The translations under genes and the position numbers were made by a program. The notes under the pieces are model-generated. The model was not told the DNA's origin, ran no database searches, and saw only the letters and a list, made by a program, of their open reading frames with translations. From the NCBI GenBank assembly GCA_022360435.1, contig JAKSCU010000104.1, positions 1 through 57,930 of the forward strand: a DNA stretch of 57,930 nucleotides, given 5' to 3'. Position 1 is the stretch's first letter; every line of letters starts with the position of its first letter. Source of the stretch: Bacillota bacterium. Its GTDB lineage: Bacteria > Bacillota > Desulfotomaculia > Desulfotomaculales > Desulfallaceae. Of this stretch, positions 26,263 through 40,318 are shown in pieces.

Positions 26263-27003
26263 GTGAATGACATTAAAAACCACGAAGCAAAGATACTGGA
26301 AATATTAAATACAATGACCAAGCCGCTGGGTAGCGGCCAACTCAGGGTGCTTCTTGCGCAAAAAGGTTTATTCCTGAGTGAAGCCACGGTGGGAAGGGTC
26401 CTCAGCGACCTGGATCAGCGGGTTTTGACTGAGAAATTGGGTTTTAAGGGCCGGATGATTACCGAACATGGCCGGAAAACACTGGAAAGCGTCAATATTG
26501 CCAGCCGGCAAAATTTCAACAGCAACAGGCTGCTGGAAATACTAAACTCCACCAGGCAGGAGGACCTTATTGACATGTTGAAGGCCAGGCGGGCCATAGA
26601 AAGGGAGTTGGCTCGGTTGGCTTCACTTAATGCCACTGAAAACGATATTAAACTGCTGGAAGCGGTGCTTCATGAGCAGGAACAATTGGCCCGTAACAAT
26701 GAAATGTCCGCCGAGCAGGACCTTAATTTCCATCGTTTAATCGCCACGGCGGCGAAAAATAAAGTGCTGGCCGCCGCTTTGGACCTAATACGGCAGGGCA
26801 GGCAGATGACCGACATACTGGAGTACATCAGAAAAGAGGTTAAAGGCACTTTGGCAGTGGAACACACACTGATTATGCGGGCCATCATCAGCCGGGACCC
26901 GGAAAAAGCGGAGCAGGCCATGGTGGACCACATCGAAAGTCTTATTATCGATGTGGAGAAGTACTGGAAAATAGTTAACGAAACACAAAAAGTAAAAATA
27001 TAA
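26263..27003 (+). CDS. GntR/FadR-like regulator with C-terminal FCD domain
   Basis: N-terminal winged-helix region (LSEATVGRVLSDL). FCD-type helices (ARRAIERELARLA...DLNFHRLIATAAKNKVL). Confidence 0.8.
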   Translation: MNDIKNHEAKILEILNTMTKPLGSGQLRVLLAQKGLFLSEATVGRVLSDLDQRVLTEKLGFKGRMITEHGRKTLESVNIASRQNFNSNRLLEILNSTRQEDLIDMLKARRAIERELARLASLNATENDIKLLEAVLHEQEQLARNNEMSAEQDLNFHRLIATAAKNKVLAAALDLIRQGRQMTDILEYIRKEVKGTLAVEHTLIMRAIISRDPEKAEQAMVDHIESLIIDVEKYWKIVNETQKVKI

Positions 27004-27242: not shown

Positions 27243-27677
27243 ATGGGAGACCCTTATCAGGAGAAGTCTTTTGCTGAAAACCCTTATTATCGCAAAAGGG
27301 ATATTGCCGGCCGGTTGGTGGTGGTATTGAGTGGCCGGCTGGAAAACAGGGGGTTGCAGTTGATTGTTCCCATTTCCCGGGCGGTGCAAAAAAACCAGGT
27401 GCACGAGCTTATTGTAACCGATGAAGCGGCAGCCGGTCCGGGACGCCAGGTACAGAAAATAGCTTATCTTGGTTTTGTGGAGTTTTCTTCCGGCGGGGTG
27501 ATGGTGACAGGGGATGAAGTTTTCTGCGCCGGGCGTTTGCTGGGGGAAATCGCCGGGTTTGACGAGACCCATCTGCCCAACCATCTGAATATAGTCCTGC
27601 GTTCAAAAGAAAGGCGGGACGGCAGGGAACTAAAATTGGATTTGGATAGCGAAATTGTTATTAAAAAGCGTAATTGA
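27243..27677 (+). CDS. Conserved-looking small protein of unknown function (144 aa), first gene of the mutase operon
   Basis: SD AAGGGAG upstream and coherent GC3. No motif I can name. Confidence 0.6.
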   Translation: MGDPYQEKSFAENPYYRKRDIAGRLVVVLSGRLENRGLQLIVPISRAVQKNQVHELIVTDEAAAGPGRQVQKIAYLGFVEFSSGGVMVTGDEVFCAGRLLGEIAGFDETHLPNHLNIVLRSKERRDGRELKLDLDSEIVIKKRN

Positions 27678-27700
27678 GATTAAAAAAGGGGGTATTTGAA

Positions 27701-29164
27701 ATGAGTCAGTTTAAGCACAAGTTCCAAATGTACAAGCATCTACAGGCCAATATTCCCGGCATATACGCCGAGGCCAAAAAAGCGGCGGATGAAATAGGCG
27801 TCCCCGCGGAAATCAGGGGTAAGTTCGGCCTTACCGGTGCCATATCCGGTTGTCCCGCGCCGCTACGCAGGGACATTGTCGAGGCGTCGGAAAAGGGCGC
27901 CACCGAAGTGATTCCGCTGGCCAAGTTAATGGATGAAATTAGGGAAATTGTCAAGGACGTATACGGGGATGAATATGATGCGGCTGCCACCAGCACCTGC
28001 GAGGCAGCCCTGTGGGTCAGCTTCGACACCCTGTTCACCCCGCCCATGCTGGGCCGGGGCGATAACTATCACGCCAGGTACATCGCTCCCTACGAGAAGC
28101 ACCTGCACCACCAGGGCAGCTACGGGCGCCCCTTTCCGCCCCGTTTTAAAGATTTGTTTGCCGACCGGGGCTCCACCGCCGGGGAATTTGGTTTCTACGG
28201 CAAGCGCCAGAATAACCTGGAAACAGTTATTGTGCCGCTGCCCGGGGCCAGGTACGACGTGCACGGTATCAAGTACCACCCGGTGCCCCTGCTGACCGGG
28301 GTAGACCCGGAAGCGTCCCGGGAAAAACTGGAACAACTGGCCGCCAACCACGGTCCGCTGCTTACCGGAATAACATCCCTGGGTTATGACACGCCGGGTT
28401 ACGGGTACGGAATTAAGGACGCTAACGGCACACCGGTTTTACAAAAGGTTCTGGCCGGGGTGGCGAGCCGGTACGACATCCCGTACGTGGTGGATAACGC
28501 CTGGGGCCTGCCCTTCGTGGGTTTTGACCCCCGCAAAAGCGGCGCCGACGTGGTGGCCTACAGTATGGACAAGGCTACGGGGGCTGCCACCAGCGGTTTG
28601 ATTATCGGCCGGGAAGAATATCTGGTTCCCATCAGGCGAGCGCTGGGCATGCACGGTGACCGCTACGGGACCACCGCCTCTTACGGAAAGGCCGCTTATG
28701 TAACCTTTGATCCGGGCAAGGAAGCTCTTTTGACCCAGATTCAGGCGTTAAAAGTGTTGCGGGACGATCCCCAGGTGCTTACCCGCCCGGTGGACGATCT
28801 GGAGAAGATCGTAACAGAGGAATTTTCCCAGCTTCCAACCACACTCAAAAAGGGTATAATCATAAACAAGTCCTACAATTCGGGAGCGGTGGAGGTTAAC
28901 TACGAAGGGACATGGCAAGACGGTCAAATTGGCATTCCCATCTTCACCATCGAGGATATGTACGCGGGCAGCAATATACTGCAAACGGGTCTGGCCCAAA
29001 TGGGCATCATACCCACCATCGCCTATGACGCCAACATTTACATTTCTCCCGGCCTGGGCACCACCGACGATTACGGAATGGTCAAAGAGCAGGAAACCAG
29101 GTACGCAGTCCGGGGTCTGGTACGGTTAATTGAAATTGTCTGCAAGCACGCGGGATTGATTTAA
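27701..29164 (+). CDS. PLP-dependent enzyme, SelA-like fold-type I (487 aa)
   Basis: VVAYSMDKATGAATSGLIIGRE resembles the SelA/DgaE-type PLP-lysine loop (xSGDKLLGGPQAGxI). ATG 27701 has a G-rich SD upstream. Confidence 0.7.
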   Translation: MSQFKHKFQMYKHLQANIPGIYAEAKKAADEIGVPAEIRGKFGLTGAISGCPAPLRRDIVEASEKGATEVIPLAKLMDEIREIVKDVYGDEYDAAATSTCEAALWVSFDTLFTPPMLGRGDNYHARYIAPYEKHLHHQGSYGRPFPPRFKDLFADRGSTAGEFGFYGKRQNNLETVIVPLPGARYDVHGIKYHPVPLLTGVDPEASREKLEQLAANHGPLLTGITSLGYDTPGYGYGIKDANGTPVLQKVLAGVASRYDIPYVVDNAWGLPFVGFDPRKSGADVVAYSMDKATGAATSGLIIGREEYLVPIRRALGMHGDRYGTTASYGKAAYVTFDPGKEALLTQIQALKVLRDDPQVLTRPVDDLEKIVTEEFSQLPTTLKKGIIINKSYNSGAVEVNYEGTWQDGQIGIPIFTIEDMYAGSNILQTGLAQMGIIPTIAYDANIYISPGLGTTDDYGMVKEQETRYAVRGLVRLIEIVCKHAGLI

Positions 29165-29231
29165 TGTGGGATTGACTTAATGATTAACGTTCGCCTTGGT
29201 TGAAACCATAAAACAGCAAGGAGGTTGCAGG

Positions 29232-30533
29232 ATGGTAAAGATGGTAATTGCGGGCGGAGGCTGGGCCGGAACCGGGGCCGCCGTGGCGGCGGCCCAGGCC
29301 GGAGCCGAAGTAATCTTGCTGGAACGTACGGACATGCTGCTGGGCACCGGCCTGGTGGGCGGGATTATGCGCAACAACGGCAGGTTTACGGCCACCGAAG
29401 AGGCCATTTGCATGGGTATGGGGGACGTTTTCAACGTGGTGGAAATGTCGGCCAGGCACAAGAATGTTGCATTCCCGGGCCACAAACACGCCACCCTTTA
29501 TGACGTGGCCGGGATAGAACCTAACATCAAGGACATGCTTCTGAAAAAGAGGGTTGACATAAAAACGCGCAGCCGGGTCAAGGATGTGGTTGTGGAAGAA
29601 AACCGGATTGCGGCCGTGGTGCTGGACTCGGGTGAAAAAATAGAGGGAGACGTGTTTGTCGACGCCACCGGAAGCGCCGGCCCCATGGGCAATTGTACCA
29701 AGTTGGGCAACGGCTGCGCTATGTGCATCCTGCGCTGCCTGACATTTGGCGGCCGGGTCAGCTTGGCCGCCCAGGCCGGTGTTAAGGAATACGTGGGTCG
29801 CAAAGCCGACGGTTCTCCCGGCGCCATGAGCGGTTCATGCAAATTGCACAAGGAGTCCCTGGATAAGAACATTGTGGAACAGCTTGAACAAAAAGGCGTG
29901 GCCGTGATTCCCGTGCCCGAAAATTTGCGCAAGGGCAATGATATTTTGTCCAAGAAAGCTTGTCAGCAGTACGCCCTGGCCGAGTTCGCGGAGAACATTA
30001 TCCTTCTGGACACCGGGCACGCCAAACTGATGTCGCCCACCTACCCGCTGGACATGCTCAGGCAAGTGCCGGGTTTTGCAAACGCCCGTTTCGAAGACCC
30101 GTATGCCGGAGGGGTGGGCAACTCCATCAGATACTTGGCCATCTCGCCCCGGGACAACGCGTTAAAGGTAGAGGGCCTGTCCAACCTGTTCTGTGCCGGT
30201 GAAAAGGCCGGACCCATGGTGGGACACACCGAAGCCATAGTAACGGGGGCGTTGGCCGGTCACAACGCGGTGCGGTTCGGGGTTGGACAAGCGTTGCTGG
30301 AGATTCCCGCGACACTGGCCATCGGGGACTATATCGCCTACGCCAACGAACAGGTCAGGGCCGGTGACGGCCTGGAGCACAAATTTACTTTTTCCGGTTC
30401 GGTATACTTCAAGCGGATGGTGGAAAAGAATCTGTACACCACCGACGTAGCCGCCATCCGGGACAGGGTCGAGGAAGCGGGAATGGCCCGCGTGTACGCA
30501 AGGCCCCTGGTTACCAAGTCACTGGCAATTTAA
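29232..30533 (+). CDS. FAD-dependent oxidoreductase with TrmFO/GidA-like fold and a Cys cluster
   Basis: N-terminal dinucleotide fold MVIAGGGWAGTGAAVAAAQAG. Cys cluster CTKLGNGCAMCILRC. C-terminal block LFCAGEKAGPMVGHTEAIVTGALAGHNA parallels TrmFO [32 protein letters not shown] upstream of ATG 29232. Confidence 0.75.
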   Translation: MVKMVIAGGGWAGTGAAVAAAQAGAEVILLERTDMLLGTGLVGGIMRNNGRFTATEEAICMGMGDVFNVVEMSARHKNVAFPGHKHATLYDVAGIEPNIKDMLLKKRVDIKTRSRVKDVVVEENRIAAVVLDSGEKIEGDVFVDATGSAGPMGNCTKLGNGCAMCILRCLTFGGRVSLAAQAGVKEYVGRKADGSPGAMSGSCKLHKESLDKNIVEQLEQKGVAVIPVPENLRKGNDILSKKACQQYALAEFAENIILLDTGHAKLMSPTYPLDMLRQVPGFANARFEDPYAGGVGNSIRYLAISPRDNALKVEGLSNLFCAGEKAGPMVGHTEAIVTGALAGHNAVRFGVGQALLEIPATLAIGDYIAYANEQVRAGDGLEHKFTFSGSVYFKRMVEKNLYTTDVAAIRDRVEEAGMARVYARPLVTKSLAI

Positions 30534-30552: not shown

Positions 30553-30801
30553 ATGGCTGGCCCAATGGATAGAATAATGGACGGCCTGGACATTGAAACT
30601 TTTTTAATTTGCGGCAGCGAGGAAGAAGGCCGGCGGTTGGCAATTCAACTGGTCACGGAATGGGGATTCCAGGACGTGGACATTGTTTTCGTTCAGTTTC
30701 AGGGTCCCGGGGTCAGGGTGCGGATCAGGGCGTACGTGCACCGGTCGGGTGATGTTTACGGTTGGCTGAAACCCGGCCCGGAAAAGGAAGTGGTTGTATG
30801 A
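30553..30801 (+). CDS. Small protein of unknown function (82 aa)
   Basis: Coherent coding frame. Its stop overlaps the mutase start (ATGA at 30798-30801). Confidence 0.5.
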   Translation: MAGPMDRIMDGLDIETFLICGSEEEGRRLAIQLVTEWGFQDVDIVFVQFQGPGVRVRIRAYVHRSGDVYGWLKPGPEKEVVV

Positions 30802-32618
30802 GCGGCAAGAAGGTACTGCTGTTTCCCCTGGATCCCGTGCATGACGTGGGTTTAAAAATGATCCGCCGGGGCCTTGACGATGCCGGCCACCGGACCATCC
30901 TTTTTCCCCCGGATTTGGGTGTTGAGGAAGTCGTAATGGAGGTTATGCGGTCTTCCCCCGACGCCGTGCTGATCAGCAGGACCCTGGGATACGGGGTAGC
31001 CGAGGTGTTGGCCCGGCTGGTTGACCTCCTTGACGCTGCCGACGTGCGGGAAAGAATCCTGCTGGTGGTGGGCGGCATGGCAGTCAGGCCCGAGTTGGCG
31101 GCCGAGTTGGGTTTTGATGCCGGGTTTGGCCCTGGGACTACTGTGGAAGAGGCGGTGGCCTTTGTTGAAGGCAGAGAATACACCCCGAAAAAAACCTGCG
31201 GCAAAAAAGAAAAGACGGCCATCACCAGCGGTTATACCTATAATTATTTGCATTCCGGAATCAGGGACAAGCTTAACACCGTCACGGACATGATTCTGGC
31301 CTGGGCCGAAAACAAATCTTCTCCCGGCATGCGGAGGGCCTTGGCGCGGGACGAACTTTGGGACGTGGCAAAATGGCGCAATTATGAGCCAATGACGGCG
31401 TTTTTTAATGAATATAGTCAATTATGCGAAGAATCCGCTCAACTATTTTATGCAAATCAGGTGTTTCCTTCCAAAACCAGGCGCTTTACCAGGGAAGAAG
31501 TGGTTGAGCTGGAGGATTACGTGCAGAGAACCCGGGAAAATATGATGGCGCCCGGGCTGCAGCACCAGCGCGCCAAGCCCCTGGTATTCAACCAGTACGG
31601 CACCGGGTGCCCGTTCATGGATATTGGGCACATCAAGGTTAGCGAAGCCTGGGGCGCCGACGGGGTCATTCACTTCGACCCTTCCTGGGGGGCCAGGACC
31701 GAAGGGATTTTTGACGGTTTTCTGACCCACGAGGAGGACGGGACCCTGGTGACTCCCGCCAATCTCAACCGGATAAAAATGTCCCTGGAGCCCGGCACCC
31801 AATGGCAGGTCCGGGCGCACCGGGGGTTAAACACCCCGGAAACGGTGGTGCTGGCCGGGAAGATAGGCGCCGATTTGACCAAAATCAACCTTTGCTACGG
31901 GGCCCTGGGGGCGGGCACCGACCCGGCCAGGATGACGGTGGACGGCGTGGGGGCCATCCGCTATGCCGTCAAGTACAACCTGCCTTTTGATGTGGTAACC
32001 AATGAGGAACTGTGCGGGGTTCCGGCTTACAAAGCCTTTGCGGGGATGCTGATTACCATGGACCTGGGCTTGCGCCTGGGCGGCAGACCCGTGCTCCAGC
32101 CCCTGTTCTGCTTCTCTCCGGAAGTGATGGTGGGCGGGCAGATGCGGAACAATTACGTGGAGTATAACGCGGCCAAGGTTATGGCCCTGCGTAAAATTGT
32201 TGACGCGCCTCTCTGGCCGGGGGCGCCCATCGGCTTTATGACCCATACCGAGGATCGGGTCCAATCGTCTGCCACCACCGCTTTTCACGCCTGCGCCGCG
32301 GCCATGTTAAACGTGGATGCCATTACCATCGCCTCGTCCGACGAAGCTTATTCCGGCGGGCCCATCAGCGTGCCGGCCAAAATTGACACCTTGCGGGCGG
32401 TGGGCGAGGGTTTCAGGTTCTTCGGCGGCATGGAGCTCGCCGTCACCCGGCGGACTGAGGCTTGGAGTGAAGAGATTATTTCGGGTATAGATGATGTGCT
32501 GGACAAGGTTATTGCCGCGGGCGACTTTGTTCGGGCGCTGTACGACGGGTTGCTTGGCAGCAGGGAGGACGGGGCCTATCCCGGCAGGAACGGCAGGGGC
32601 ACCGTAATCGAAACATGA
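30798..32618 (+). CDS. Single-chain cobalamin-dependent mutase (N-terminal B12-binding domain fused to a GlmE-like barrel)
   Basis: N-terminal Rossmann-like B12 domain with the DxHxxG motif (LDPVHDVGLKM) and GG loop (LLVVGGMAV). The ~450-aa C-terminal part has a block pattern resembling methylaspartate mutase E (…AITIASSDEAYSGGPISVPAK…). Confidence 0.8.
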   Translation: MSGKKVLLFPLDPVHDVGLKMIRRGLDDAGHRTILFPPDLGVEEVVMEVMRSSPDAVLISRTLGYGVAEVLARLVDLLDAADVRERILLVVGGMAVRPELAAELGFDAGFGPGTTVEEAVAFVEGREYTPKKTCGKKEKTAITSGYTYNYLHSGIRDKLNTVTDMILAWAENKSSPGMRRALARDELWDVAKWRNYEPMTAFFNEYSQLCEESAQLFYANQVFPSKTRRFTREEVVELEDYVQRTRENMMAPGLQHQRAKPLVFNQYGTGCPFMDIGHIKVSEAWGADGVIHFDPSWGARTEGIFDGFLTHEEDGTLVTPANLNRIKMSLEPGTQWQVRAHRGLNTPETVVLAGKIGADLTKINLCYGALGAGTDPARMTVDGVGAIRYAVKYNLPFDVVTNEELCGVPAYKAFAGMLITMDLGLRLGGRPVLQPLFCFSPEVMVGGQMRNNYVEYNAAKVMALRKIVDAPLWPGAPIGFMTHTEDRVQSSATTAFHACAAAMLNVDAITIASSDEAYSGGPISVPAKIDTLRAVGEGFRFFGGMELAVTRRTEAWSEEIISGIDDVLDKVIAAGDFVRALYDGLLGSREDGAYPGRNGRGTVIET

Positions 32619-33700
32619 CCGGCATCTCGCTGGGCATGGTGGGCACCGCAAAAAACACGGGTAAAACCACCACCACCATAGCGCTGCTGAACAGCTTTTA
32701 CGACCGGGGCATCCCGGTGGGGATTACCAGTATCGGTTTGGACGGCGAAACTTTAGACAACGTGACAGGTTTGCCCAAGCCCAGGCTGTTTGTGCGCAAG
32801 GGCGTGCTGGTGACAACGGCTGAAAAATGCCTGGCATTAAGCAGCGCCGCCATAAAAGTACTGGACAGGCTGGATATACGCACCCCGCTGGGGTCCTTGG
32901 TTTGTGGCCGGGTTGAGCGGGAAGGCCTGGTGGTGTTGGCCGGTCCGCCCCGCAGTAAAAATGTGCGGCAGGTTATTGAGTACCTGTGGCGGCGGGGAGC
33001 CTTAATGGTGCTGGTGGACGGGGCACTGAACAGGTTCGTGCCCCTGGCGGAAACAGACGGGCTGGTGCTGGCCACCGGCGCCGCGTACAGCCGGGAAAAC
33101 GCCGCTGTCGCACTCAACGCAGGCCAACTGGAGATGGTTTGCAGCGAGGCCATGGTTATAGACCCGCCGGAGCGGTCCACCGGCCACCGGACAATCATAT
33201 GGGACGCCGCCGGGCAGGTTCTGGCCGAAACAGCCGGTTCCCTTTTGGTGCCGGAACAGCTTATTCCGCTGGCCGGGCAAGTTCAGTCCGCTCGGGGGTT
33301 CTACAGCCCCGGAGTGGTTATGGCCGGCTGCTTGAAGCAATTATTACAATGGCCGTTTCCGCCGGCCACAACCTATATCTTTTCCGACCCGGCCAAGCTG
33401 ATAGTGGGCGGGAACCTGGAGACGGTAACCCGGTTTATTGAAACGGTGGCGCGCAGGGGTGGTGTGGTGGGTTATAAAAAAGCTTTGCCCCTGCTGGCGG
33501 CCACGGTTAATCCTTTTTACCCCAATTATCGCTGTGACACGCACCTCTACCAGCCGGCTTACGTGGACCGGGAAGAGCTTTTAAGACATGTGTCGGCAAT
33601 GGTAAAGGCGCCGGTGTTCGACGTTGCCGCGGGGGGCGGGGAGGGCCTGGCCGAGTTGCTTTTGGCCCGCTTGCGGGGCGGCCAGGCAAGAATGCAATAG
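32615..33700 (+). CDS. P-loop NTPase (DTBS/CobQ-like N-terminus), possible mutase accessory protein
   Basis: Walker A GTAKNTGKTT at residues 10-19. The start overlaps the mutase stop (ATGA). Confidence 0.65.
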   Translation: MTGISLGMVGTAKNTGKTTTTIALLNSFYDRGIPVGITSIGLDGETLDNVTGLPKPRLFVRKGVLVTTAEKCLALSSAAIKVLDRLDIRTPLGSLVCGRVEREGLVVLAGPPRSKNVRQVIEYLWRRGALMVLVDGALNRFVPLAETDGLVLATGAAYSRENAAVALNAGQLEMVCSEAMVIDPPERSTGHRTIIWDAAGQVLAETAGSLLVPEQLIPLAGQVQSARGFYSPGVVMAGCLKQLLQWPFPPATTYIFSDPAKLIVGGNLETVTRFIETVARRGGVVGYKKALPLLAATVNPFYPNYRCDTHLYQPAYVDREELLRHVSAMVKAPVFDVAAGGGEGLAELLLARLRGGQARMQ

Positions 33701-34324: not shown

Positions 34325-35719
34325 GTGTCTTTTGAACACTGGTTGTATGTTATTGGTGTGCTAGTGGTAATTGCAACTATGATTTTGCGCCGCAATGTGG
34401 TAATCCCCTGTATTGTGTTTACCTTTTTAATCAGCCTTTCTTTTTCCGGAAACCCAATTAGCGCCACGCAGTCCCTGTTCAACGCCAGCATTGTGGCGGC
34501 TAAGGAATTATTTGCCATATTCTTGATTATCAGTCTTATGATGGCCATGTTGAAATCCATCAGCGCCACCGGGGGTGACGAACTAATGGTTCAACCATTA
34601 AAGAAACTAATGGTTGGACCTGCGGTTAGTTATATTGTTATTTGTGTGGCCACGTTTGTCATATCGCTTTTCTTCTGGCCCACTCCCGCAGTGCCGCTGA
34701 TTGGCGCGCTTCTGGTGCCGGCGGCTATAAGAGCCGGGCTGCCGCCCATGCTGGCGGCCATGGCCCTGGCCTTTGCCGGACAGGGGATGGCCCTGGCCGG
34801 AGACGTGGTTATTCAGGGCGCTCCCGGCTTAACGGCCAGCTCAGCGGGCGTGGCCACTGAGTTGGTTACATTTAAAGCAGGCATTCTTTCTGTGATTGCC
34901 GGCCTTACGGCTATAACAATCGGTTATTTTATCAACCGCCGTGAAATAGGCGTTTTTAAACACAACGCCAATGAAACCGCCGCCACCACAAACAGCCCCA
35001 TAGCAGGGTTGATGCAATCCGAAGCAAAAAAACCGGAACTGCTGGGCAAGGGCCGGTTCCTGGTTTATCTGCTTGTAGCCGCCATGATTGCTGTGGTTAT
35101 TTCCATGTTCACCTTTGATATCAAGGGCGGCGACGCATCAGCTTTGCTGGGCGGCGTGGCGCTAATTATAATGCTTATAGCGACCGTTATGGTTGACGGT
35201 TTTGAGGGCTTTAACAAGATGGCGGACTTCATAGCCGACGGCATGGTGTTTGCATTTAAAGTAATGGGTCCCATTATTCCTATCGCCGGTTTCTTTTTCC
35301 TGGGCAACCCTGAAATGTCGGCCACTATCCTGGGTGAAGGAGCGCCGGGTTATTTATTCGATATCGGTGGTATAATTGCCAATGTCATTCCCCCCACAGG
35401 CTTCCTGGCCGCTTTCGGGTTGCTGATTTTGGGAGCCATTAGCGGCCTCGACGGTTCCGGGTTTTCGGGCCTGCCGCTGGTGGGCACCATGGCCGGCGCC
35501 ATGGCCGCCGGCGACGCCAATGTTGCGGCCACTTTAAGCTCGCTGGGTCAGTTGGGCGCCATCTGGGCCGGCGGCGGCACCTTGATTGCCTGGAGTTCCC
35601 TGGTGGCGGTGGCCGGAATCGTGGGCGTGCCTGTTCTCGAGCTGGTGCGGAGAAACCTGTTCCCGGTTGTCTCCGGCCTGGTTGTGGCCACCATTGTGGC
35701 GGTGCTGTTTATGATGTAA
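34325..35719 (+). CDS. Polytopic membrane transporter (464 aa, ion-transporter-superfamily-like)
   Basis: GTG start with SD CAGGAGG 7 nt upstream. At least 10 hydrophobic helices, Gly/Ala-rich re-entrant-like segments (GQGMALAGDVVIQGAPG; GLDGSGFSGLPLVG). Confidence 0.75.
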   Translation: MSFEHWLYVIGVLVVIATMILRRNVVIPCIVFTFLISLSFSGNPISATQSLFNASIVAAKELFAIFLIISLMMAMLKSISATGGDELMVQPLKKLMVGPAVSYIVICVATFVISLFFWPTPAVPLIGALLVPAAIRAGLPPMLAAMALAFAGQGMALAGDVVIQGAPGLTASSAGVATELVTFKAGILSVIAGLTAITIGYFINRREIGVFKHNANETAATTNSPIAGLMQSEAKKPELLGKGRFLVYLLVAAMIAVVISMFTFDIKGGDASALLGGVALIIMLIATVMVDGFEGFNKMADFIADGMVFAFKVMGPIIPIAGFFFLGNPEMSATILGEGAPGYLFDIGGIIANVIPPTGFLAAFGLLILGAISGLDGSGFSGLPLVGTMAGAMAAGDANVAATLSSLGQLGAIWAGGGTLIAWSSLVAVAGIVGVPVLELVRRNLFPVVSGLVVATIVAVLFMM

Positions 35720-36272: not shown

Positions 36273-37013
36273 TTGTTGCTGGTACAAAAATTTGGGGGAA
36301 GTTCGGTGGCAACGCCCGAACGAATCAAGGGGGTGGCTCGCCGGGTGGTGGAGACGCGCAGGAAAGGGTGCCGGGTGGTGGTTGTGGTTTCGGCCATGGG
36401 CGATACAACCGACGATTTGATTGGGCTGGCGCGGCAGGTTGCCGGCGCCGGGCCGGGAAGAGAGATGGACGTGCTGCTGTCCACCGGCGAGCAAATGGCC
36501 GTTGCCCTGCTGGCCATGGCCATAAGCAGCATTGGGGAAAGGGTGGTGTCACTGACCGGATGTCAGGCCGGTATAATTACCGACGAAACTTATACTAAAG
36601 CAAGGATTTTGGATGTCAGAGCCGAGCGGATTAGCGGCGAACTGGATGCGGGTAATATTGTGGTGGTGGCCGGTTTCCAGGGCGTTAATCGTAACGGCGA
36701 CATAACTACCTTGGGGCGGGGCGGTTCGGATACGACGGCTGTGGCCCTGGCGGCGGCTTTGGGGGCCGATTTGTGTGAAATATACACCGACGTGGACGGG
36801 GTCTACACCGCCGACCCGCGCCTGACGCCCAACGCCCGCAAACTAACCGCTATTTCATACGATGAAATGTTGCAAATGGCACGCCTGGGCGCAACCGTGC
36901 TGCATGACAGGTCGGTGGAATACGCCAGGCATTACGGTATTTTGCTGCACGTGCGCAGCAGCTTCAACCGCCATCCGGGCACCGTTGTGGGCAAACAAGG
37001 GTGCGGTTTTTGA
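36273..37013 (+). CDS. Aspartate kinase catalytic domain only (246 aa; ACT domains absent)
   Basis: [38 protein letters not shown] and [15 protein letters not shown] are aspartokinase catalytic blocks. The ORF stops right after [15 protein letters not shown], where the ACT domains normally begin. Confidence 0.8.
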
Positions 37014-37159
37014 GGAATCATGCTCCTATTTGCTTAAAAGATGACAAAAAATGAAGGATTTTTAGGATTCAAGAATTAATATTAACTTTAATAAAAAACC
37101 GAATCATCCGCAAGGATATACTTTGTCGGGTACGGGTTTTGTTGCGGGGGTACCAACTG

Positions 37160-39727
37160 ATGGCGGAGGAACACTTTAAAAATATTATTGATTTTTTACC
37201 GGATCCCACATTCGCCATCGACCGGAACGGTAAGGTCATCGCATGGAACAGGGCTATGGAGGAAATGACCGGCCTGTCCAAGGGGGATATTTTGGGCCGT
37301 GGTGATTACAATTATGCCGTTCCCTTTTATCAAGCGCCAATACCTATTTTAATCGATTTAGTGTTTGGGGATATTCCGGGTGTAAAAGACAAATACTCTG
37401 TTTTTAAAAGAAATGGTCAAATAGTGCAGGGCGAGTGTTACTTGGCGTCGGTTTACGGCGGCCGGGGGGCCTGGGTCTTGGCCCAAGCCTGTCCGTTGCT
37501 TGATGACGCAGGTAACCCGGTGGGGGCCATCCAATCGATTCGCGACATATCGGAGCTTAAACAGCAGAAGGCGTTGTTTAAACAACTGTTTGACAATTCA
37601 CCGGAAGGAATTGTGCTTTTAAGCAGCAGTGATGTAATTATCGACGCCAACCGGGGGTTTGAAGAACTCTTTGGATACCGCATTGAAGAAATCAAGGGAC
37701 AGTATCTGAATGAAATAATTGTGCCGGATGAAAAGTCCGGGGAAGCTACCGTACTTTCGGGAACCGCGCTGCGCGGGAGTAAGGTGTATGAAGAAACGGT
37801 GCGCAGGCGCAAGGACGGGAGCCCGGTATACGTGACGGTGTTGGCTTACCCGGTGGAGATAGGCGACAAGGTGGTAGGAATTTATGGTATCTATCGGGAT
37901 ATCACCAGGCGCAAAAAGGCCGAATTGTTGCTCCGGGAAAACCAGCGGGCTTTGTCCAACCTGATGAGCAACTTGCAGGGCATGGCTTATCGCTGCCACA
38001 ACGACCCGGATTGGACTATGCAATTTGTCAGTGACGGCTGCTTGGAACTGACGGGTTATACACCTGGGGAACTGATGTCAAACCGGATTTCCATGGGACG
38101 GTTGACTCACACCGAAGACCGGGAGCGGGTCTGGCAGGAGGTGCAGGCATCCCTGAGTAAAGCCGCGCCGTTTCATATTGAATACAGGATTGTCCACCAA
38201 AGTGGTATGGTGAAATGGGTACGGGAACAGGGGCGCGGAGTATTTGCGGCCACCGGGAAGTTGGAAGCCTTGGAAGGGTTTATTTCCGACATTACCGAAA
38301 GCGTAAAAGTCAAGGAAGCGCTGTGGGAATCGGAAAGTATGTACCGCACTATATTTGAAACCACCAGCACCGCCACTGTTATCGTCGATGAAGACACCAC
38401 TATCTCTTTGGCCAACCAGTTTTTTGAAAATATTTCCGGTTACTCCAAAGAAGAAATCGAGGGCGTTAAAAGCTGGACAGAATTTGTGACTGCCGACGAT
38501 TTGCAGAAAATGAAAGAGTTTCATTGTTTGCGGCGGGTTGATCCCACCTTGGCCCCGTCGGAATACGAGTGCAGATTTCGGGATAAGTACGGAAAAACCC
38601 GGTATGTTTTACTGTCGGTGTCCATTATCCCCGGCACCAACAAAAGCGTGGCCTCGCTACTGGACATCACCGAACGCAAAAAGGCGGAGGAGCAGCTTAA
38701 ATACTTGAGCCTGCGGGACCCGCTCACCGGGCTGTTCAACCGGGCGTTTTTTGAACAGGAAATGAGCCGTCTGGAATGCGGGCGTTATAACCCGGTGGGT
38801 ATTATTGTATGTGACGTGGACGGGTTGAAACTGGTGAACGACACTCTGGGGCACGACGCCGGGGACGCCCAACTGATGCTGGCTTCCAGTGTGATCTCCA
38901 AGTGTTTTCGGACCGGGGATGTGGTGGCCAGGGTGGGCGGGGACGAGTTTGCCGTGTTACTGTCCCGAAGCGACCACAGCGTGGTGGAGAGAGCGTGTGT
39001 CAGAATTCGGGAAGCGTTGGTTACATATAACAATGAAAACCCGGAACTCACCTTGAGCATTTCAGCGGGTTACGCTGTGAGCGACGAAGTTCCGGTCAAC
39101 ATGAGCAACCTGTTCAGGGAAGCAGACAACAACATGTATCGTGAGAAATTGCACCGCAGTCAGAGCGTCCGTAGCGCCATTGTGCAGACTATGATGAAGG
39201 CGCTGGAAGCCCGGGACTTTATTACCGAAGGGCATGCCGACCGGCTGCAGGACCTGGTGGTGGGCCTGGCCGGCGTGCTGCGCCTGCCCGGGAGCAATAT
39301 AACCGAACTGCGCCTGTTGGCCCAGTTTCACGACATTGGCAAGGTGGGCATCCCCGACCGAATCCTTTTTAAACCCGGCCCGTTAAATACCGAAGAAAAA
39401 AAGGAAATGCAACGGCACTGCGAAATCGGCCATCGCATTGCGCTGTCGGCGCCCGACCTGGCTCCCATAGCCGATTGGATCTTGAAGCACCACGAGTGGT
39501 GGAACGGCGGCGGCTATCCCCTGGGTTTAAAGGAGGAACAAATTCCACTGGAATGTCGCATACTATCTATAGCCGACGCTTACGACGCCATGACCAGCGA
39601 CCGCCCATACCGGCGGGCCATGTCCCGCCGGGAGGCGGTGGCCGAACTGCTGGCCAACCGGGGCACCCAGTTCGACCCCCGATTGGTGGACAGTTTCATC
39701 CGGGTGCTGAAAAAAGGGGAAATGTAA
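37160..39727 (+). CDS. Multi-PAS GGDEF + HD-GYP composite c-di-GMP signalling protein
   Basis: About four PAS modules, a GGDEF domain (RVGGDEFAVLL), and an HD-GYP domain (FHDIGKVGIP...HHEWWNGGGYPLG). The ORF is open from TTG 37139; ATG 37160 is preferred. Confidence 0.9.
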   Translation: MAEEHFKNIIDFLPDPTFAIDRNGKVIAWNRAMEEMTGLSKGDILGRGDYNYAVPFYQAPIPILIDLVFGDIPGVKDKYSVFKRNGQIVQGECYLASVYGGRGAWVLAQACPLLDDAGNPVGAIQSIRDISELKQQKALFKQLFDNSPEGIVLLSSSDVIIDANRGFEELFGYRIEEIKGQYLNEIIVPDEKSGEATVLSGTALRGSKVYEETVRRRKDGSPVYVTVLAYPVEIGDKVVGIYGIYRDITRRKKAELLLRENQRALSNLMSNLQGMAYRCHNDPDWTMQFVSDGCLELTGYTPGELMSNRISMGRLTHTEDRERVWQEVQASLSKAAPFHIEYRIVHQSGMVKWVREQGRGVFAATGKLEALEGFISDITESVKVKEALWESESMYRTIFETTSTATVIVDEDTTISLANQFFENISGYSKEEIEGVKSWTEFVTADDLQKMKEFHCLRRVDPTLAPSEYECRFRDKYGKTRYVLLSVSIIPGTNKSVASLLDITERKKAEEQLKYLSLRDPLTGLFNRAFFEQEMSRLECGRYNPVGIIVCDVDGLKLVNDTLGHDAGDAQLMLASSVISKCFRTGDVVARVGGDEFAVLLSRSDHSVVERACVRIREALVTYNNENPELTLSISAGYAVSDEVPVNMSNLFREADNNMYREKLHRSQSVRSAIVQTMMKALEARDFITEGHADRLQDLVVGLAGVLRLPGSNITELRLLAQFHDIGKVGIPDRILFKPGPLNTEEKKEMQRHCEIGHRIALSAPDLAPIADWILKHHEWWNGGGYPLGLKEEQIPLECRILSIADAYDAMTSDRPYRRAMSRREAVAELLANRGTQFDPRLVDSFIRVLKKGEM

Positions 39728-39871
39728 AATACTTAGAGGATAAAAAAACCGATTTAAACCATATTGATGAAAAAAAGCCGACTTAAATATACTTGGAACT
39801 GTAACGCAAAACTGTACAGTTGCCCGCCCATAAGATATAATTATGTATGTGAGGTGGTAACAGATGGGGTA

Positions 39872-40318
39872 ATGACGAAATATAAAATAGGCGAAGTTGC
39901 CAAGCTTGCGGGGGTGAGTAAAAGGACTGTAGACTACTACACCAATCTAGGTTTGCTGCGGCCCGTGCGTTCTGCAAGCAACTACCGTTATTATACCGAT
40001 GAAACCCTGATGCGGTTGAAGGTTATTGAGACCATGAAAATAGGCCGTTTTACCTTGGAGGAAATTAAGGAGCAATTAAATGCCTGGGACAGCTTCCGCC
40101 TTACCGCGGCGGGAGGCGTTGCGGAAAGGGAGAAAATAAGCGTGGAAGGGCTGAGGAGGCAACTGAAACAGTTGGAAAGCCAGTTGGCCCAACTACAGTC
40201 CGATGGGACCACGGTTGTTGACGCCGCCAAGTTGCGCACCAAAATAACGGTGCAGAGCATGGCGCTGTTTCAGTCGCTGGCGTTATATATCAACGAAGTG
40301 TCAATATACCTTAAATAA
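39872..40318 (+). CDS. MerR-family transcriptional regulator
   Basis: MTKYKIGEVAKLAGVSKRTVDYYTNLGLL HTH followed by a coiled coil. The ORF is open from 39764, but the family N-terminus begins at ATG 39872. Confidence 0.8.
   Translation: MTKYKIGEVAKLAGVSKRTVDYYTNLGLLRPVRSASNYRYYTDETLMRLKVIETMKIGRFTLEEIKEQLNAWDSFRLTAAGGVAEREKISVEGLRRQLKQLESQLAQLQSDGTTVVDAAKLRTKITVQSMALFQSLALYINEVSIYLK

What the first reader, a model, noticed from the sequence alone, without database searches (positions are those of the whole stretch)
30798..32618. Single-chain mutase: N-terminal DxHxxG B12 domain fused to a GlmE-like barrel
Residues about 5-130 form a classical base-off/His-on cobalamin-binding domain (LDPVHDVG, later VVGGMAV). 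The remaining ~450 residues resemble the large (E) subunit of methylaspartate mutase in block pattern. In characterised glutamate mutases the two parts are separate polypeptides (S and E). In lysine/ornithine aminomutases the B12 domain is C-terminal or on a separate subunit and carries the PLP lysine. Here the B12 domain is N-terminal, and PLP chemistry appears to be delegated to a separate protein two genes upstream (a flavoprotein and a small ORF intervene). The size (606 aa) is close to single-chain 2-methyleneglutarate mutase, but the context differs.
Basis: partly seen in the sequence, partly recalled or inferred. Interest (0 to 1): 0.65.

Follow-up and report, generated by a model that had tools for sequence, protein, structure and literature searches.

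The report
Rewired B12 mutase without PLP site
This gene encodes an uncharacterised vitamin-B12 radical enzyme, a rearranged relative of lysine/ornithine aminomutase that has lost that enzyme's vitamin-B6 site, and it sits in a conserved operon found in many anaerobic bacteria, so it probably catalyses a B12 reaction nobody has described yet.

Summary
ORF 30798-32618 encodes a 606-aa protein with an N-terminal base-off/His-on B12 domain (D12-x-H15-x-x-G18, G92-G93) and about 470 further residues that match no Pfam, NCBIfam or PDB sequence.

The C-terminal part is a B12-mutase-type barrel, but its closest relative is KamD of lysine 5,6-aminomutase. Ornithine aminomutase (OraE) comes next, and GlmE only third.

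The B12 domain is also KamE-like. An 82-aa gene just upstream resembles the KamE N-terminal domain, and the gene downstream is a KamB-like P-loop reactivase. The locus is therefore a permuted and fused relative of the aminomutases.

The PLP lysine is replaced by Leu26. Only one of nine mapped PLP-contacting barrel residues is kept (Tyr367).

The most likely reading is an adenosylcobalamin-dependent, PLP-independent isomerase acting on a carboxylate-bearing amine or amino acid.

About 60 species genomes carry a conserved operon around it: a GntR regulator, DUF6917, RidA, a novel fold-type-I PLP enzyme and an Fe-S-like flavoprotein. 18 of 63 loci also carry a transporter.

The substrate is unknown, and I found no paper describing the family.

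The parts
26263..27003 (+). GntR-family regulator with an FCD ligand-binding domain; probable regulator of the operon
   Evidence: Pfam FCD E 3e-23 and a winged-helix domain. A homologue lies next to the cluster in 42 of 63 family loci.
27243..27677 (+). DUF6917 protein (144 aa), function unknown, with invariant His/Asp motifs (HE, GFDETHxPNHxN)
   Evidence: Pfam PF21891 E 8e-49. Present in 43 of 63 loci. Fused to RidA in one ORF in L004, L006 and L017. No PDB sequence match. Alignment.
27674..29164 (+). Fold-type-I PLP-dependent enzyme of an undescribed family (496 aa as listed; homologues about 487 aa), with an SMDK lysine (K300) and a VVDNAW aspartate (D274)
   Evidence: Weak matches only around the PLP lysine: DgaE/SelA-related TIGR01437 E 2e-8, and O-acetylhomoserine sulfhydrylase 8sf5 E 3e-6. 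K300 and D274 are invariant. Present in 48 of 63 loci.
29196..30533 (+). GidA/MnmG-like FAD protein with an invariant Cys cluster C167-x6-C174-x2-C177-x3-C181 plus C215 and C256 (possible Fe-S site)
   Evidence: Pfam GIDA E 2e-30. Remote MnmG matches in the PDB. The six cysteines are invariant in 47 of 47 sequences. Present in 48 of 63 loci.
30553..30801 (+). Small subunit (82 aa from ATG 30553; the listed ORF starts at TTG 30538). Probable homologue of the N-terminal 'dimerisation' domain of KamE/OraE. Its stop overlaps the mutase start (ATGA).
   Evidence: Present immediately upstream of the mutase in 62 of 63 loci. Pfam OAM_dimer E 0.07. BLAST to the KamE-N piece E 0.027. hhalign to KamE residues 36-72 E 1.2e-4. 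AF2 model pLDDT 83. Foldseek ranks 1-3, 5, 7 and 8 of 350,542 chains are KamE or OraE, best E 0.036 and rmsd 1.6 A. Overlap and ribosome-binding site seen.
30798..31187 (+). Mutase residues 1-130: base-off/His-on cobalamin Rossmann domain of the KamE/OraE type (D12-x-H15-x-x-G18, S60, G92-G93, ELGFDAGFGPGT at 103-114). It lacks the PLP lysine.
   Evidence: Pfam PF02310 E 2e-13. KamE 8t0v_C E 1e-14. hhalign to a KamE profile gives probability 99.5 and E 9e-23, with the KamE PLP lysine (His+11) aligned to Leu26. The 4-residue OraE insert 'IDIK' that carries the lysine is absent.
31188..32618 (+). Mutase residues 131-606: linker plus a (beta/alpha)8 barrel remotely homologous to KamD. Highly conserved motifs: NQYGTGCP, HFDPSWGARTEG, RAHRGLNTPE, NxCYG, TNEE and SSDEAYSGGP.
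   Evidence: No Pfam, NCBIfam or PDB sequence hit. Foldseek: KamD E 1.4e-14, OraE 2.7e-10, GlmE 2.4e-9. hhalign to KamD E 1.3e-4 over 402 columns, with decoys at or above 0.014. Residue mapping. An exhaustive search of 1.84 billion representative proteins returned only 60 hits: two near-full-length proteins of 52-54% identity and otherwise short fragments.
32615..33700 (+). KamB-like P-loop protein (GTAKNTGKTT), probable ATP-dependent cofactor chaperone/reactivase. Its start overlaps the mutase stop (ATGA).
   Evidence: NF052386 reactivase_KamB E 2e-59, 201.5 bits against a cut-off of 210. 27% identity over 347 residues to the KamB of a canonical lysine operon, E 3e-24. Present in 57 of 63 loci. 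Overlap seen.
34325..35719 (+). Polytopic membrane protein (464 aa), probable substrate transporter of an undescribed family
   Evidence: Hydrophobic sequence. No significant Pfam, NCBIfam or PDB match. A homologue lies in the cluster in 18 of 63 loci.

Best explanation
The gene encodes the catalytic subunit of an uncharacterised adenosylcobalamin-dependent radical isomerase. It is an evolutionary re-wiring of the lysine-5,6 / ornithine-4,5-aminomutase system. The KamE-type cobalamin Rossmann domain is fused in front of a KamD-type barrel. The KamE N-terminal domain is a separate 82-aa subunit encoded just upstream. A KamB-like P-loop protein encoded just downstream probably exchanges damaged cofactor. 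Inferred mechanism: substrate binding brings the His15-ligated cofactor over the barrel mouth, the Co-C bond breaks, the 5'-deoxyadenosyl radical abstracts a substrate hydrogen, a neighbouring group shifts by one carbon, and the hydrogen is returned. Unlike its relatives the enzyme most likely works without PLP. The Schiff-base lysine is a leucine, and the barrel residues that hold PLP are replaced or deleted, partly by invariant arginines. That points to a carboxylate-bearing substrate held as in glutamate mutase. The operon suggests a catabolic route: a transporter (in some genomes) takes up an amino acid or amino-acid-like acid, the mutase rearranges it, and the PLP enzyme and/or the Fe-S-like flavoprotein then remove nitrogen via an enamine or imine that RidA hydrolyses. 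Shown here: the domain make-up, the homologies, the loss of PLP residues and the operon conservation. Inferred: the Ado-form cofactor, PLP independence and the pathway logic. Unknown: the substrate.
For: B12 domain: Pfam E 2e-13. It is KamE-type by NCBIfam (56 bits), the PDB (E 1e-14) and hhalign (E 9e-23).

Barrel: Foldseek ranks KamD first (E 1.4e-14, TM 0.60). hhalign to KamD is colinear over 402 columns at E 1.3e-4, against decoys at or above 0.014.

Small subunit: four independent weak signals all point to the KamE/OraE N-terminal domain.

KamB-like gene: 201.5 bits, and E 3e-24 to a genuine KamB. ATGA overlaps link small ORF, mutase and KamB-like gene.

PLP loss: the KamE lysine aligns to Leu26 (nearly invariant), and the OraE lysine insert is absent. 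PLP contacts listed in PMC3958899 map as R184 to D294, G187-S189 deleted, Y236 to A340, S238 to R342, R268 to A372 and N299 to a gap. Only Y263 to Y367 is kept. Global and local alignments give the same mapping.

An acidic residue (D507, D/E in 51 of 61) sits at the position of OraE Glu338, the adenosine-ribose contact.

Operon conservation across 63 loci: small ORF 62, KamB-like 57, PLP 48, FAD 48, DUF6917 43, GntR 42, RidA 34.
Against: There is no biochemical evidence. Sequence-level homology of the barrel to KamD is marginal: hhalign probability is 53-86%, and it falls to 21% when OraE is added to the profile. The residue mapping therefore rests on a remote alignment and could be locally wrong. 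I could not inspect the 3D model's pocket. PLP could bind in a different way, since invariant K362 and K412 lie in the barrel. KamC, the MutS-like reactivase partner, is absent, although some genuine kamDE loci also show no KamC within the stretch fetched. The operon is almost silent in the available Sporomusa ovata RNA-seq, so no inducing condition is known. The pathway role of each accessory protein is conjecture.
Confidence: 0.6

Rival explanations
1. One reading: a single-chain glutamate-mutase-like (GlmS-GlmE fusion type) carbon-skeleton mutase acting on glutamate or a close analogue, with the separate PLP enzyme processing the branched amino acid product.
For: GlmE is a significant structural match (Foldseek E 2.4e-9, TM 0.53). 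The enzyme lacks PLP features and has invariant arginines in the barrel (R300, R339, R342, R378, R487). From general knowledge, this recalls the arginines that hold glutamate's carboxylates in GlmE.
Against: KamD and OraE rank above GlmE. No GlmE model (Pfam or NCBIfam) is hit even at E 10. GlmS models score 18 bits against 56 bits for KamE. The chaperone is KamB-like rather than GlmL-like, and no methylaspartase-type gene is among the conserved neighbours.
Confidence: 0.15
2. A genuine PLP- and B12-dependent aminomutase for a new diamino or omega-amino acid, in which PLP is held by a non-canonical site. Candidates are a barrel lysine such as K362 or K412, or PLP presented by the co-encoded fold-type-I PLP protein.
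For: Every part is closest to the PLP-dependent aminomutases. The PLP-stacking tyrosine is invariant (Y367). A PLP protein co-occurs in 48 of 63 loci. K362 is invariant and aligns with OraE His182, a substrate contact.
Against: The Schiff-base lysine, the pyridine-N serine, both phosphate arginines and the GQS phosphate loop are all lost. A divergent clade keeps the mutase, small subunit, KamB-like gene and RidA with no PLP gene within 10 kb. No precedent is known for PLP being supplied by another protein.
Confidence: 0.2
3. A corrinoid protein used for methyl transfer or another non-radical B12 function, comparable to an MtaC/MttC domain fused to a TIM-barrel methyltransferase.
For: The B12 domain also matches corrinoid methyltransferase proteins weakly (MtgC 32 bits; 1y80 and 7xcn). 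Many host organisms are acetogens or methylotrophs.
Against: No B12-binding_2 cap domain is detected. None of the barrel-length Foldseek hits among the 50 listed is a corrinoid methyltransferase barrel such as MtaB or MttB; the strongest are B12 mutase large subunits. The partner is a KamB-type reactivase, not a RamA-type activase.
Confidence: 0.03
4. An orthologue of single-chain 2-methyleneglutarate mutase (Mgm).
For: Similar length (606 aa against about 614 aa, the latter from memory), and a single chain with a DxHxxG motif.
Against: None of the nicotinate-fermentation genes appears among the conserved neighbours. An exhaustive phmmer search of 1.84 billion representatives with the barrel found no full-length relative outside the family itself. 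An annotated Mgm should have appeared if it were related and present in that library. Nitrogen-handling neighbours (PLP enzyme, RidA) do not fit a nitrogen-free substrate.
Confidence: 0.02

Closest known systems
Lysine 5,6-aminomutase (KamD/KamE with reactivase KamB/KamC; PDB 1xrs, 8t0v, 9q1a)
   Same: The base-off/His-on Rossmann domain carries the same ELG(F/Y)DAGFGPGT signature, with 42% identity in the hhalign alignment. The barrel has the same fold and a colinear remote alignment. A small alpha/beta domain resembles the KamE N-terminus. A KamB-type P-loop partner is present.
   Different: The domain order is permuted and fused: KamE-N as a separate gene, then KamE-C joined to KamD in one chain. 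The PLP lysine is Leu26, and eight of the nine mapped PLP-contacting barrel residues are lost. There is no KamC. No lysine-fermentation genes (kamA, kdd, kce) are nearby; the neighbours are instead DUF6917, RidA, a novel PLP enzyme and a GidA-like flavoprotein. The barrel is below the detection limit of PF09043.
D-ornithine 4,5-aminomutase (OraS/OraE; PDB 3kow-3kp1)
   Same: Barrel, dimerisation domain and B12 domain are all structurally matched. An acidic residue sits at the Glu338 position, and the tyrosine at the Tyr187 position is kept.
   Different: In OraE the order is barrel, dimerisation domain, then B12 domain in one chain; here it is reversed and split. The insert carrying Lys629 is missing. 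The substrate contacts Glu81, Tyr160, His182 and Arg297 are not conserved; they map to Q266, A340, K362 and G479.
Glutamate mutase (GlmS/GlmE; PDB 1cb7, 6h9e)
   Same: It is a PLP-independent AdoCbl enzyme acting on a free carboxylate substrate, which is the working model proposed here. The barrel fold is similar (Foldseek E 2.4e-9).
   Different: There is no sequence-model match to GlmE or GlmS. The structural match is weaker than for KamD or OraE. The chaperone type and the operon differ.
IcmF (fused isobutyryl-CoA mutase; PDB 4xc6, 5cjt)
   Same: It is a precedent for an N-terminal B12 domain preceding the barrel in one polypeptide, and it is matched by Foldseek (E 3e-8).
   Different: IcmF has an inserted MeaB-type G-protein domain and an acyl-CoA-binding barrel (PF01642). 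Neither was detected here.

Membership tests
PLP/AdoCbl-dependent aminomutases (lysine 5,6- and ornithine 4,5-aminomutase) | Base-off/His-on cobalamin domain with DxHxxG...SxT/L...GG | tested here: met
   D12-x-H15-x-x-G18, S60 and G92-G93. Pfam PF02310 E 2e-13. Most motif residues are invariant.
PLP/AdoCbl-dependent aminomutases (lysine 5,6- and ornithine 4,5-aminomutase) | Schiff-base lysine 11 residues after the cobalt-ligating histidine (Lys144-beta / Lys629) | tested here: not met
   hhalign to a KamE profile aligns that lysine to Leu26, which is conserved in at least 90% of 30 homologues. The 4-residue OraE insert holding the lysine is absent.
PLP/AdoCbl-dependent aminomutases (lysine 5,6- and ornithine 4,5-aminomutase) | Barrel residues that hold PLP (Arg184, Gly187-Ser189, Tyr236, Ser238, Tyr263, Arg268, Asn299 in KamD) | tested here: not met
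   Only the Tyr263 equivalent (Y367) is kept. The others map to D294, a deletion, A340, R342, A372 and a gap. The mapping depends on a remote alignment.
PLP/AdoCbl-dependent aminomutases (lysine 5,6- and ornithine 4,5-aminomutase) | KamD/OraE-type barrel recognised by the family sequence model (PF09043 or the NCBIfam equivalogs) | tested here: not met
   No hit at E 10. Homology is visible only by fold (Foldseek E 1.4e-14) and by profile-profile comparison (E 1.3e-4).
PLP/AdoCbl-dependent aminomutases (lysine 5,6- and ornithine 4,5-aminomutase) | N-terminal/dimerisation domain accompanying the B12 domain | tested here: inconclusive
   A separate 82-aa protein is the candidate. Every signal is individually weak (E 0.07, 0.027, 1.2e-4 and 0.036), but all point to the same domain, and KamE/OraE fill the top Foldseek ranks.
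PLP/AdoCbl-dependent aminomutases (lysine 5,6- and ornithine 4,5-aminomutase) | Dedicated reactivase KamB plus KamC | tested here: inconclusive
   The KamB-like gene scores 201.5 bits, just under the cut-off of 210. KamC (MutS_V) is absent from all 63 family loci.
PLP/AdoCbl-dependent aminomutases (lysine 5,6- and ornithine 4,5-aminomutase) | Catalysis of a 1,2-amino shift that requires PLP | not testable with these tools
   This needs an enzyme assay.
Glutamate mutase (GlmS/GlmE) | Match to the GlmE (PF06368 / TIGR01503) and GlmS (TIGR01501, NF002612) models | tested here: not met
   GlmE: no hit at E 10. GlmS: 17.8-17.9 bits against cut-offs of 110-136.
Glutamate mutase (GlmS/GlmE) | Operon with a GlmL/MutL chaperone and methylaspartate ammonia-lyase | tested here: not met
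   The recurrent neighbour families in 63 loci are GntR, DUF6917, RidA, the PLP enzyme, the flavoprotein, the small ORF, KamB-like and a transporter. None of the window's copies of these matches a GlmL or methylaspartase model in Pfam or NCBIfam.
2-methyleneglutarate mutase (Mgm) | Sequence similarity to Eubacterium barkeri Mgm | not testable with these tools
Indirectly, an exhaustive search with the barrel found no full-length relative outside the family.
2-methyleneglutarate mutase (Mgm) | Nicotinate-fermentation gene context (methylitaconate isomerase and others) | tested here: not met
   The conserved neighbours are unrelated to that pathway.
Acyl-CoA mutases (MCM/ICM/IcmF) | PF01642 barrel and a MeaB-type G-protein chaperone | tested here: not met
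   No PF01642 hit. MCM models match only the B12 domain (31 bits and 19 bits). The chaperone is KamB-like.
Corrinoid methyltransferase proteins (MtaC/MttC type) | B12-binding_2 helical cap plus a cognate methyltransferase and a RamA activase | tested here: not met
   No cap domain in Pfam. No corrinoid methyltransferase barrel appears among the 50 listed structural hits.

The most novel reading that the evidence does not exclude
This may be the founding member of a new class of adenosylcobalamin isomerase. It descends from the PLP-dependent aminomutases but has shed PLP, and it would catalyse a rearrangement not on the current list of B12 reactions. That reaction would be the first step of a widespread, undescribed nitrogen-compound catabolic pathway in acetogens, Gram-positive sulfate reducers, syntrophs, heliobacteria and termite-gut spirochaetes. 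Four further protein families in the pathway have no assigned function. A bolder variant, from memory only, is that it corresponds to an orphan B12 activity such as the never-cloned 'leucine 2,3-aminomutase'. As I recall them, crude assays for that activity included FAD and PLP alongside coenzyme B12.
Probability: 0.45. Interest if true: 0.85.

Novelty: new variant of a known kind. Interest (0 to 1): 0.62.

Why it matters
From general knowledge, only about a dozen adenosylcobalamin-dependent enzyme reactions are known, and new ones are rare.

Here a compact, highly conserved family is found in at least 60 species-level genomes and more than 1000 protein clusters. All its parts are closest to the aminomutases, yet the PLP site is gone. 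This gives a natural test of what PLP contributes to radical amino-group migration and of how this enzyme lineage changed chemistry.

The surrounding operon also links five unassigned protein families to one pathway: the barrel domain, the 82-aa subunit, DUF6917, a new PLP enzyme family and a Cys-cluster GidA-like flavoprotein. A transporter with no family match joins them in some genomes. Finding one substrate would therefore assign a role to all of them.

The hosts are important anaerobes in subsurface, digester and gut carbon and nitrogen cycling.

Tried and rejected
1. Sequence searches with the barrel gave nothing: Pfam and NCBIfam at E 10, and the PDB by single sequence and by profile.

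2. An exhaustive phmmer search of 1.84 billion representatives with the barrel gave only 60 hits: two near-full-length proteins and otherwise short fragments. No bridge to KamD, OraE, GlmE or Mgm appeared.

3. Literature searches found no paper on this family. Terms tried: DUF6917, protein accession numbers, KamB/KamC/reactivase, 2-methyleneglutarate mutase, aminomutase plus RidA, annotation strings plus host genera, and beta-leucine.

4. An Rfam scan of the window and four family loci for a riboswitch that might name the ligand found only tRNAs.

5. Sporomusa ovata RNA-seq showed the operon almost silent (depth 0-5, apart from one bin reaching 10-27 inside the mutase gene), so no inducing condition could be read off.

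6. PDB sequence searches with the DUF6917 profile and with the membrane protein gave no hits. The PLP enzyme and the flavoprotein gave only remote, uninformative hits.

7. Neighbours in the divergent clade (L055, L063 and others) turned out to be housekeeping genes: a pseudouridine synthase, a phosphoribosyltransferase and phosphoesterases.

8. Adding OraE to the KamD profile lowered rather than raised the hhalign significance.

It was repeated with database homologues.

10. Apparent synteny with the PAS-GGDEF-HD gene was rejected. It is shared only with S. ovata.
Full report
**Observation.**
ATG 30798 to stop 32616-32618 gives 606 aa.
- Its start overlaps the stop of a small upstream ORF (GTTGTATGAGC), and its stop overlaps the start of the next gene (ACATGACC). 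Both are ATGA overlaps typical of translational coupling.
- Residues 13-120 match Pfam B12-binding (E 2e-13, above the curated cut-off). The motif D12-P-V-H15-D-V-G18 and G92-G93 are present and largely invariant in homologues.
- The other ~476 residues match nothing in Pfam, NCBIfam or the PDB by sequence, even at E 10.

**The family.**
- More than 1000 clusters match. The top 120 are all 604-611 aa and at least 63% identical. Sources name them only 'cobalamin B12-binding domain-containing protein', or occasionally and wrongly 'lysine 5,6-aminomutase beta subunit'.
- An exhaustive HMMER pass over 1.84 billion representative proteins with the C-terminal 476 residues gave only 60 hits: two near-full-length proteins of 52-54% identity and otherwise short fragments. 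The family is tight and isolated in sequence space.
- A scan of one genome per species returned about 65 loci. Most are Bacillota: Desulfovirgula, Desulfotomaculum, Sporomusa, Heliobacterium, Heliorestis, Tepidanaerobacter, Dethiobacter, Fervidicola and Symbiobacterium. Treponema, Candidatus Adiutrix and Sumerlaeota MAGs also carry it.
- The window's own protein is 78-80% identical to those of Desulfofundulus, Desulfovirgula and Desulfotomaculum.

**What the two halves are.**
- *B12 domain.* It is of the aminomutase type. Scores are NF052385 (KamE) 56 bits, OraE 33, the MCM C-terminal domain 31 and GlmS 18. The PDB match to KamE has E 1e-14 and shares the ELGFDAGFGPGT motif. hhalign to a KamE profile built from 13 genomic KamE sequences gives probability 99.5% and E 9e-23.
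- *C-terminal part.* An AlphaFold2 model (pLDDT 77, pTM 0.74) was searched against 350,542 PDB chains. The ranking was KamD first (8t0v_A and 1xrs_A, E 1.4-2e-14, TM 0.60), OraE next (2.7e-10), GlmE third (2.4e-9), then IcmF, MCM and 2-hydroxyisobutyryl-CoA mutase.
- I retrieved a canonical lysine-fermentation operon (L003: kce, kdd, kamA, kamB, kamC, kamD, kamE) and further genuine KamD genes.
- A profile-profile comparison of the family with KamD is colinear over 402 columns (residues 154-589 against KamD 15-486) at E 1.3e-4. Reversed, shuffled and block-shuffled decoys gave E at or above 0.014 and at most 81 columns.
- So 'mutase-type barrel' is right, but 'GlmE-like' is not the best description. 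The barrel is a remote KamD homologue.

**The neighbours complete the picture.**
- *Small upstream ORF.* It is probably 82 aa from ATG 30553, which has a GGGGGGA ribosome-binding site, and homologues are 82 aa. It lies directly upstream of the mutase in 62 of 63 loci.
- Four independent weak signals link it to the N-terminal 'dimerisation' domain of KamE/OraE: Pfam OAM_dimer E 0.07, BLAST E 0.027, hhalign E 1.2e-4, and its AF2 model (pLDDT 83).
- For that model, Foldseek ranks 1, 2, 3, 5, 7 and 8 are KamE or OraE, with best rmsd 1.6 A over 51 columns.
- *Downstream gene.* It is a P-loop protein scoring 201.5 bits on the KamB reactivase model (cut-off 210). It is 27% identical over 347 residues to the KamB of L003 (E 3e-24).
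- *Resulting architecture.* The locus is a permuted aminomutase. The canonical KamD + KamE(N-C) arrangement becomes KamE-N (separate gene) followed by a KamE-C::KamD fusion.
- An N-terminal B12 domain ahead of the barrel has a precedent in IcmF.
- KamC (MutS_V) is absent from all family loci.

**PLP.**
- In KamE and OraE the Schiff-base lysine lies 11 residues after the cobalt-ligating histidine. In the hhalign alignment it falls on Leu26, which is nearly invariant.
- Compared with OraE, the 4-residue insert 'IDIK' carrying the lysine is missing.
- The review PMC3958899 lists the barrel residues that hold PLP in lysine 5,6-aminomutase. I confirmed their numbering against 1xrs_A.
- They map as follows, identically in global and local alignments:

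| KamD residue | Family position |
|---|---|
| Arg184 | D294 (invariant) |
| Gly187-Gln188-Ser189 | deleted |
| Tyr236 | A340 |
| Ser238 | R342 (invariant) |
| Tyr263 | Y367 (kept, invariant) |
| Arg268 | A372/G |
| Asn299 | gap |

- OraE substrate contacts are not kept either: Glu81 to Q266, His182 to K362, Arg297 to G479. An acidic residue (D507) does sit at the position of Glu338, the adenosine-ribose contact.
- These mappings rest on a remote alignment, and I could not inspect coordinates. Even so, the loss of the PLP site is consistent across all positions.
- The barrel carries invariant R300, R339, R342, R378 and R487, plus several invariant His, Asp and Glu residues.

**Operon.**
- Across 63 loci the recurrent genes are: small ORF 62, KamB-like 57, GidA-like flavoprotein 48, PLP enzyme 48, DUF6917 43, GntR/FCD regulator 42, RidA 34 and a 460-aa membrane protein 18. 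No other family recurs beyond housekeeping neighbours.
- DUF6917 and RidA are fused in three genomes.
- The PLP enzyme is fold-type I (invariant D274 and K300). It resembles known enzymes only around the lysine: O-acetylhomoserine sulfhydrylase, and DgaE/SelA-related proteins.
- The flavoprotein is remotely MnmG-like and has six invariant cysteines, including Cx6Cx2Cx3C.
- A divergent clade retains only RidA, GntR, the small ORF, the mutase and the KamB-like gene within 10 kb.
- The FCD regulator, the transporter (where present), RidA and the two nitrogen-handling enzymes suggest catabolism of a carboxylate-bearing amine or amino acid. This is inference only.

**Mechanism proposed.**
The enzyme would be an AdoCbl radical isomerase working without PLP. 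The steps are Co-C homolysis, hydrogen abstraction, a 1,2-shift and hydrogen return. The substrate would be held by arginines, as carboxylates are in glutamate mutase. The KamB-like protein would exchange inactivated cofactor. The product would be deaminated by the PLP enzyme and/or the flavoprotein, with RidA hydrolysing the enamine or imine. The substrate is unknown. Confidence is about 0.8 that this is an AdoCbl isomerase of the aminomutase lineage, and about 0.65 that it is PLP-independent.

**Rivals.**
- A PLP-dependent aminomutase with a non-canonical PLP site, possibly invariant K362 or K412, or PLP presented by the partner protein.
- A corrinoid methyltransferase (unlikely).
- An Mgm orthologue (unlikely, and not directly testable here).

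**What is known.**
I found no paper describing this family. No solved structure is closer than 14-16% identity in the barrel. S. ovata RNA-seq shows the operon nearly silent under the sampled conditions, and no riboswitch was found.

**Verdict.**
The object is a new architectural and probably mechanistic variant of the B12 aminomutase/mutase kind, widespread and uncharacterised, with unknown substrate. Interest is 0.62.

Noticed in passing
L010:4330-4485 (Sporomusa ovata, about 250 bp upstream of the DUF6917 gene): A short stretch is transcribed far above the operon (word depth about 500 against 0-5). Reads run off its 3' end into at least five different continuations, and there is an internal 57-base variant. 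This suggests a multi-copy expressed element. A gathering-threshold Rfam scan of the whole locus found nothing there.
   Followed up: partly
L004:5934-6839, L006:4831-5736, L017:13332-14246: DUF6917 and RidA are encoded as one fused ORF of about 301-304 aa in three genomes. This gene fusion ties the unknown DUF6917 to imine/enamine deaminase chemistry.
   Followed up: partly
L003:7582-7953 and L003:8001-8384: In this canonical lysine-fermentation operon KamE is called as two ORFs: a 123-aa N-terminal domain and a 127-aa B12 domain. This is the same split point that separates the small ORF from the B12 domain in the family studied. I did not check whether it is a real fission or a frameshift.
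   Followed up: no
Locus pairs L011/L019, L018/L033, L008/L050, L007/L068, L014/L023, L040/L057: Six MAGs carry two copies of the mutase cluster on different contigs, at roughly 57-68% identity to the query. The paralogues may differ in substrate.
   Followed up: no
window 29694-29738 (flavoprotein residues 167-181) plus C215 and C256: The GidA-like flavoprotein has six cysteines that are invariant in 47 of 47 homologues, including C-x6-C-x2-C-x3-C. This suggests an iron-sulfur or zinc site that is not part of the MnmG/TrmFO description.
   Followed up: partly
window 36273-37013: An aspartate kinase catalytic domain only (246 aa, 380 bits to full-length models of about 400-590 positions), ending before the ACT regulatory domains. 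A 72%-identical, similarly short copy lies beside the cluster in Desulfovirgula (L004:4189-4917).
   Followed up: partly
L070, L074, L080, L082, L083: Several loci with genuine kamD/kamE genes have a KamB homologue but no detectable KamC (MutS_V) within the stretch fetched. KamB alone may suffice as a chaperone in some aminomutase systems.
   Followed up: no
L054, L055, L059, L063: A divergent clade (about 52-54% identity) keeps RidA, GntR, the small ORF, the mutase and the KamB-like gene together, but has no PLP enzyme, flavoprotein or DUF6917 within 10 kb. RidA adjacency therefore seems tied to the mutase itself.
   Followed up: partly
window 37139-40318 and L001:13526-17241: A PAS-GGDEF-HD(-GYP-like) signalling protein and a MerR regulator flank the cluster both in the window and in Sporomusa ovata. 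The pairing is not seen in the other family loci, so it is probably coincidental.
   Followed up: yes
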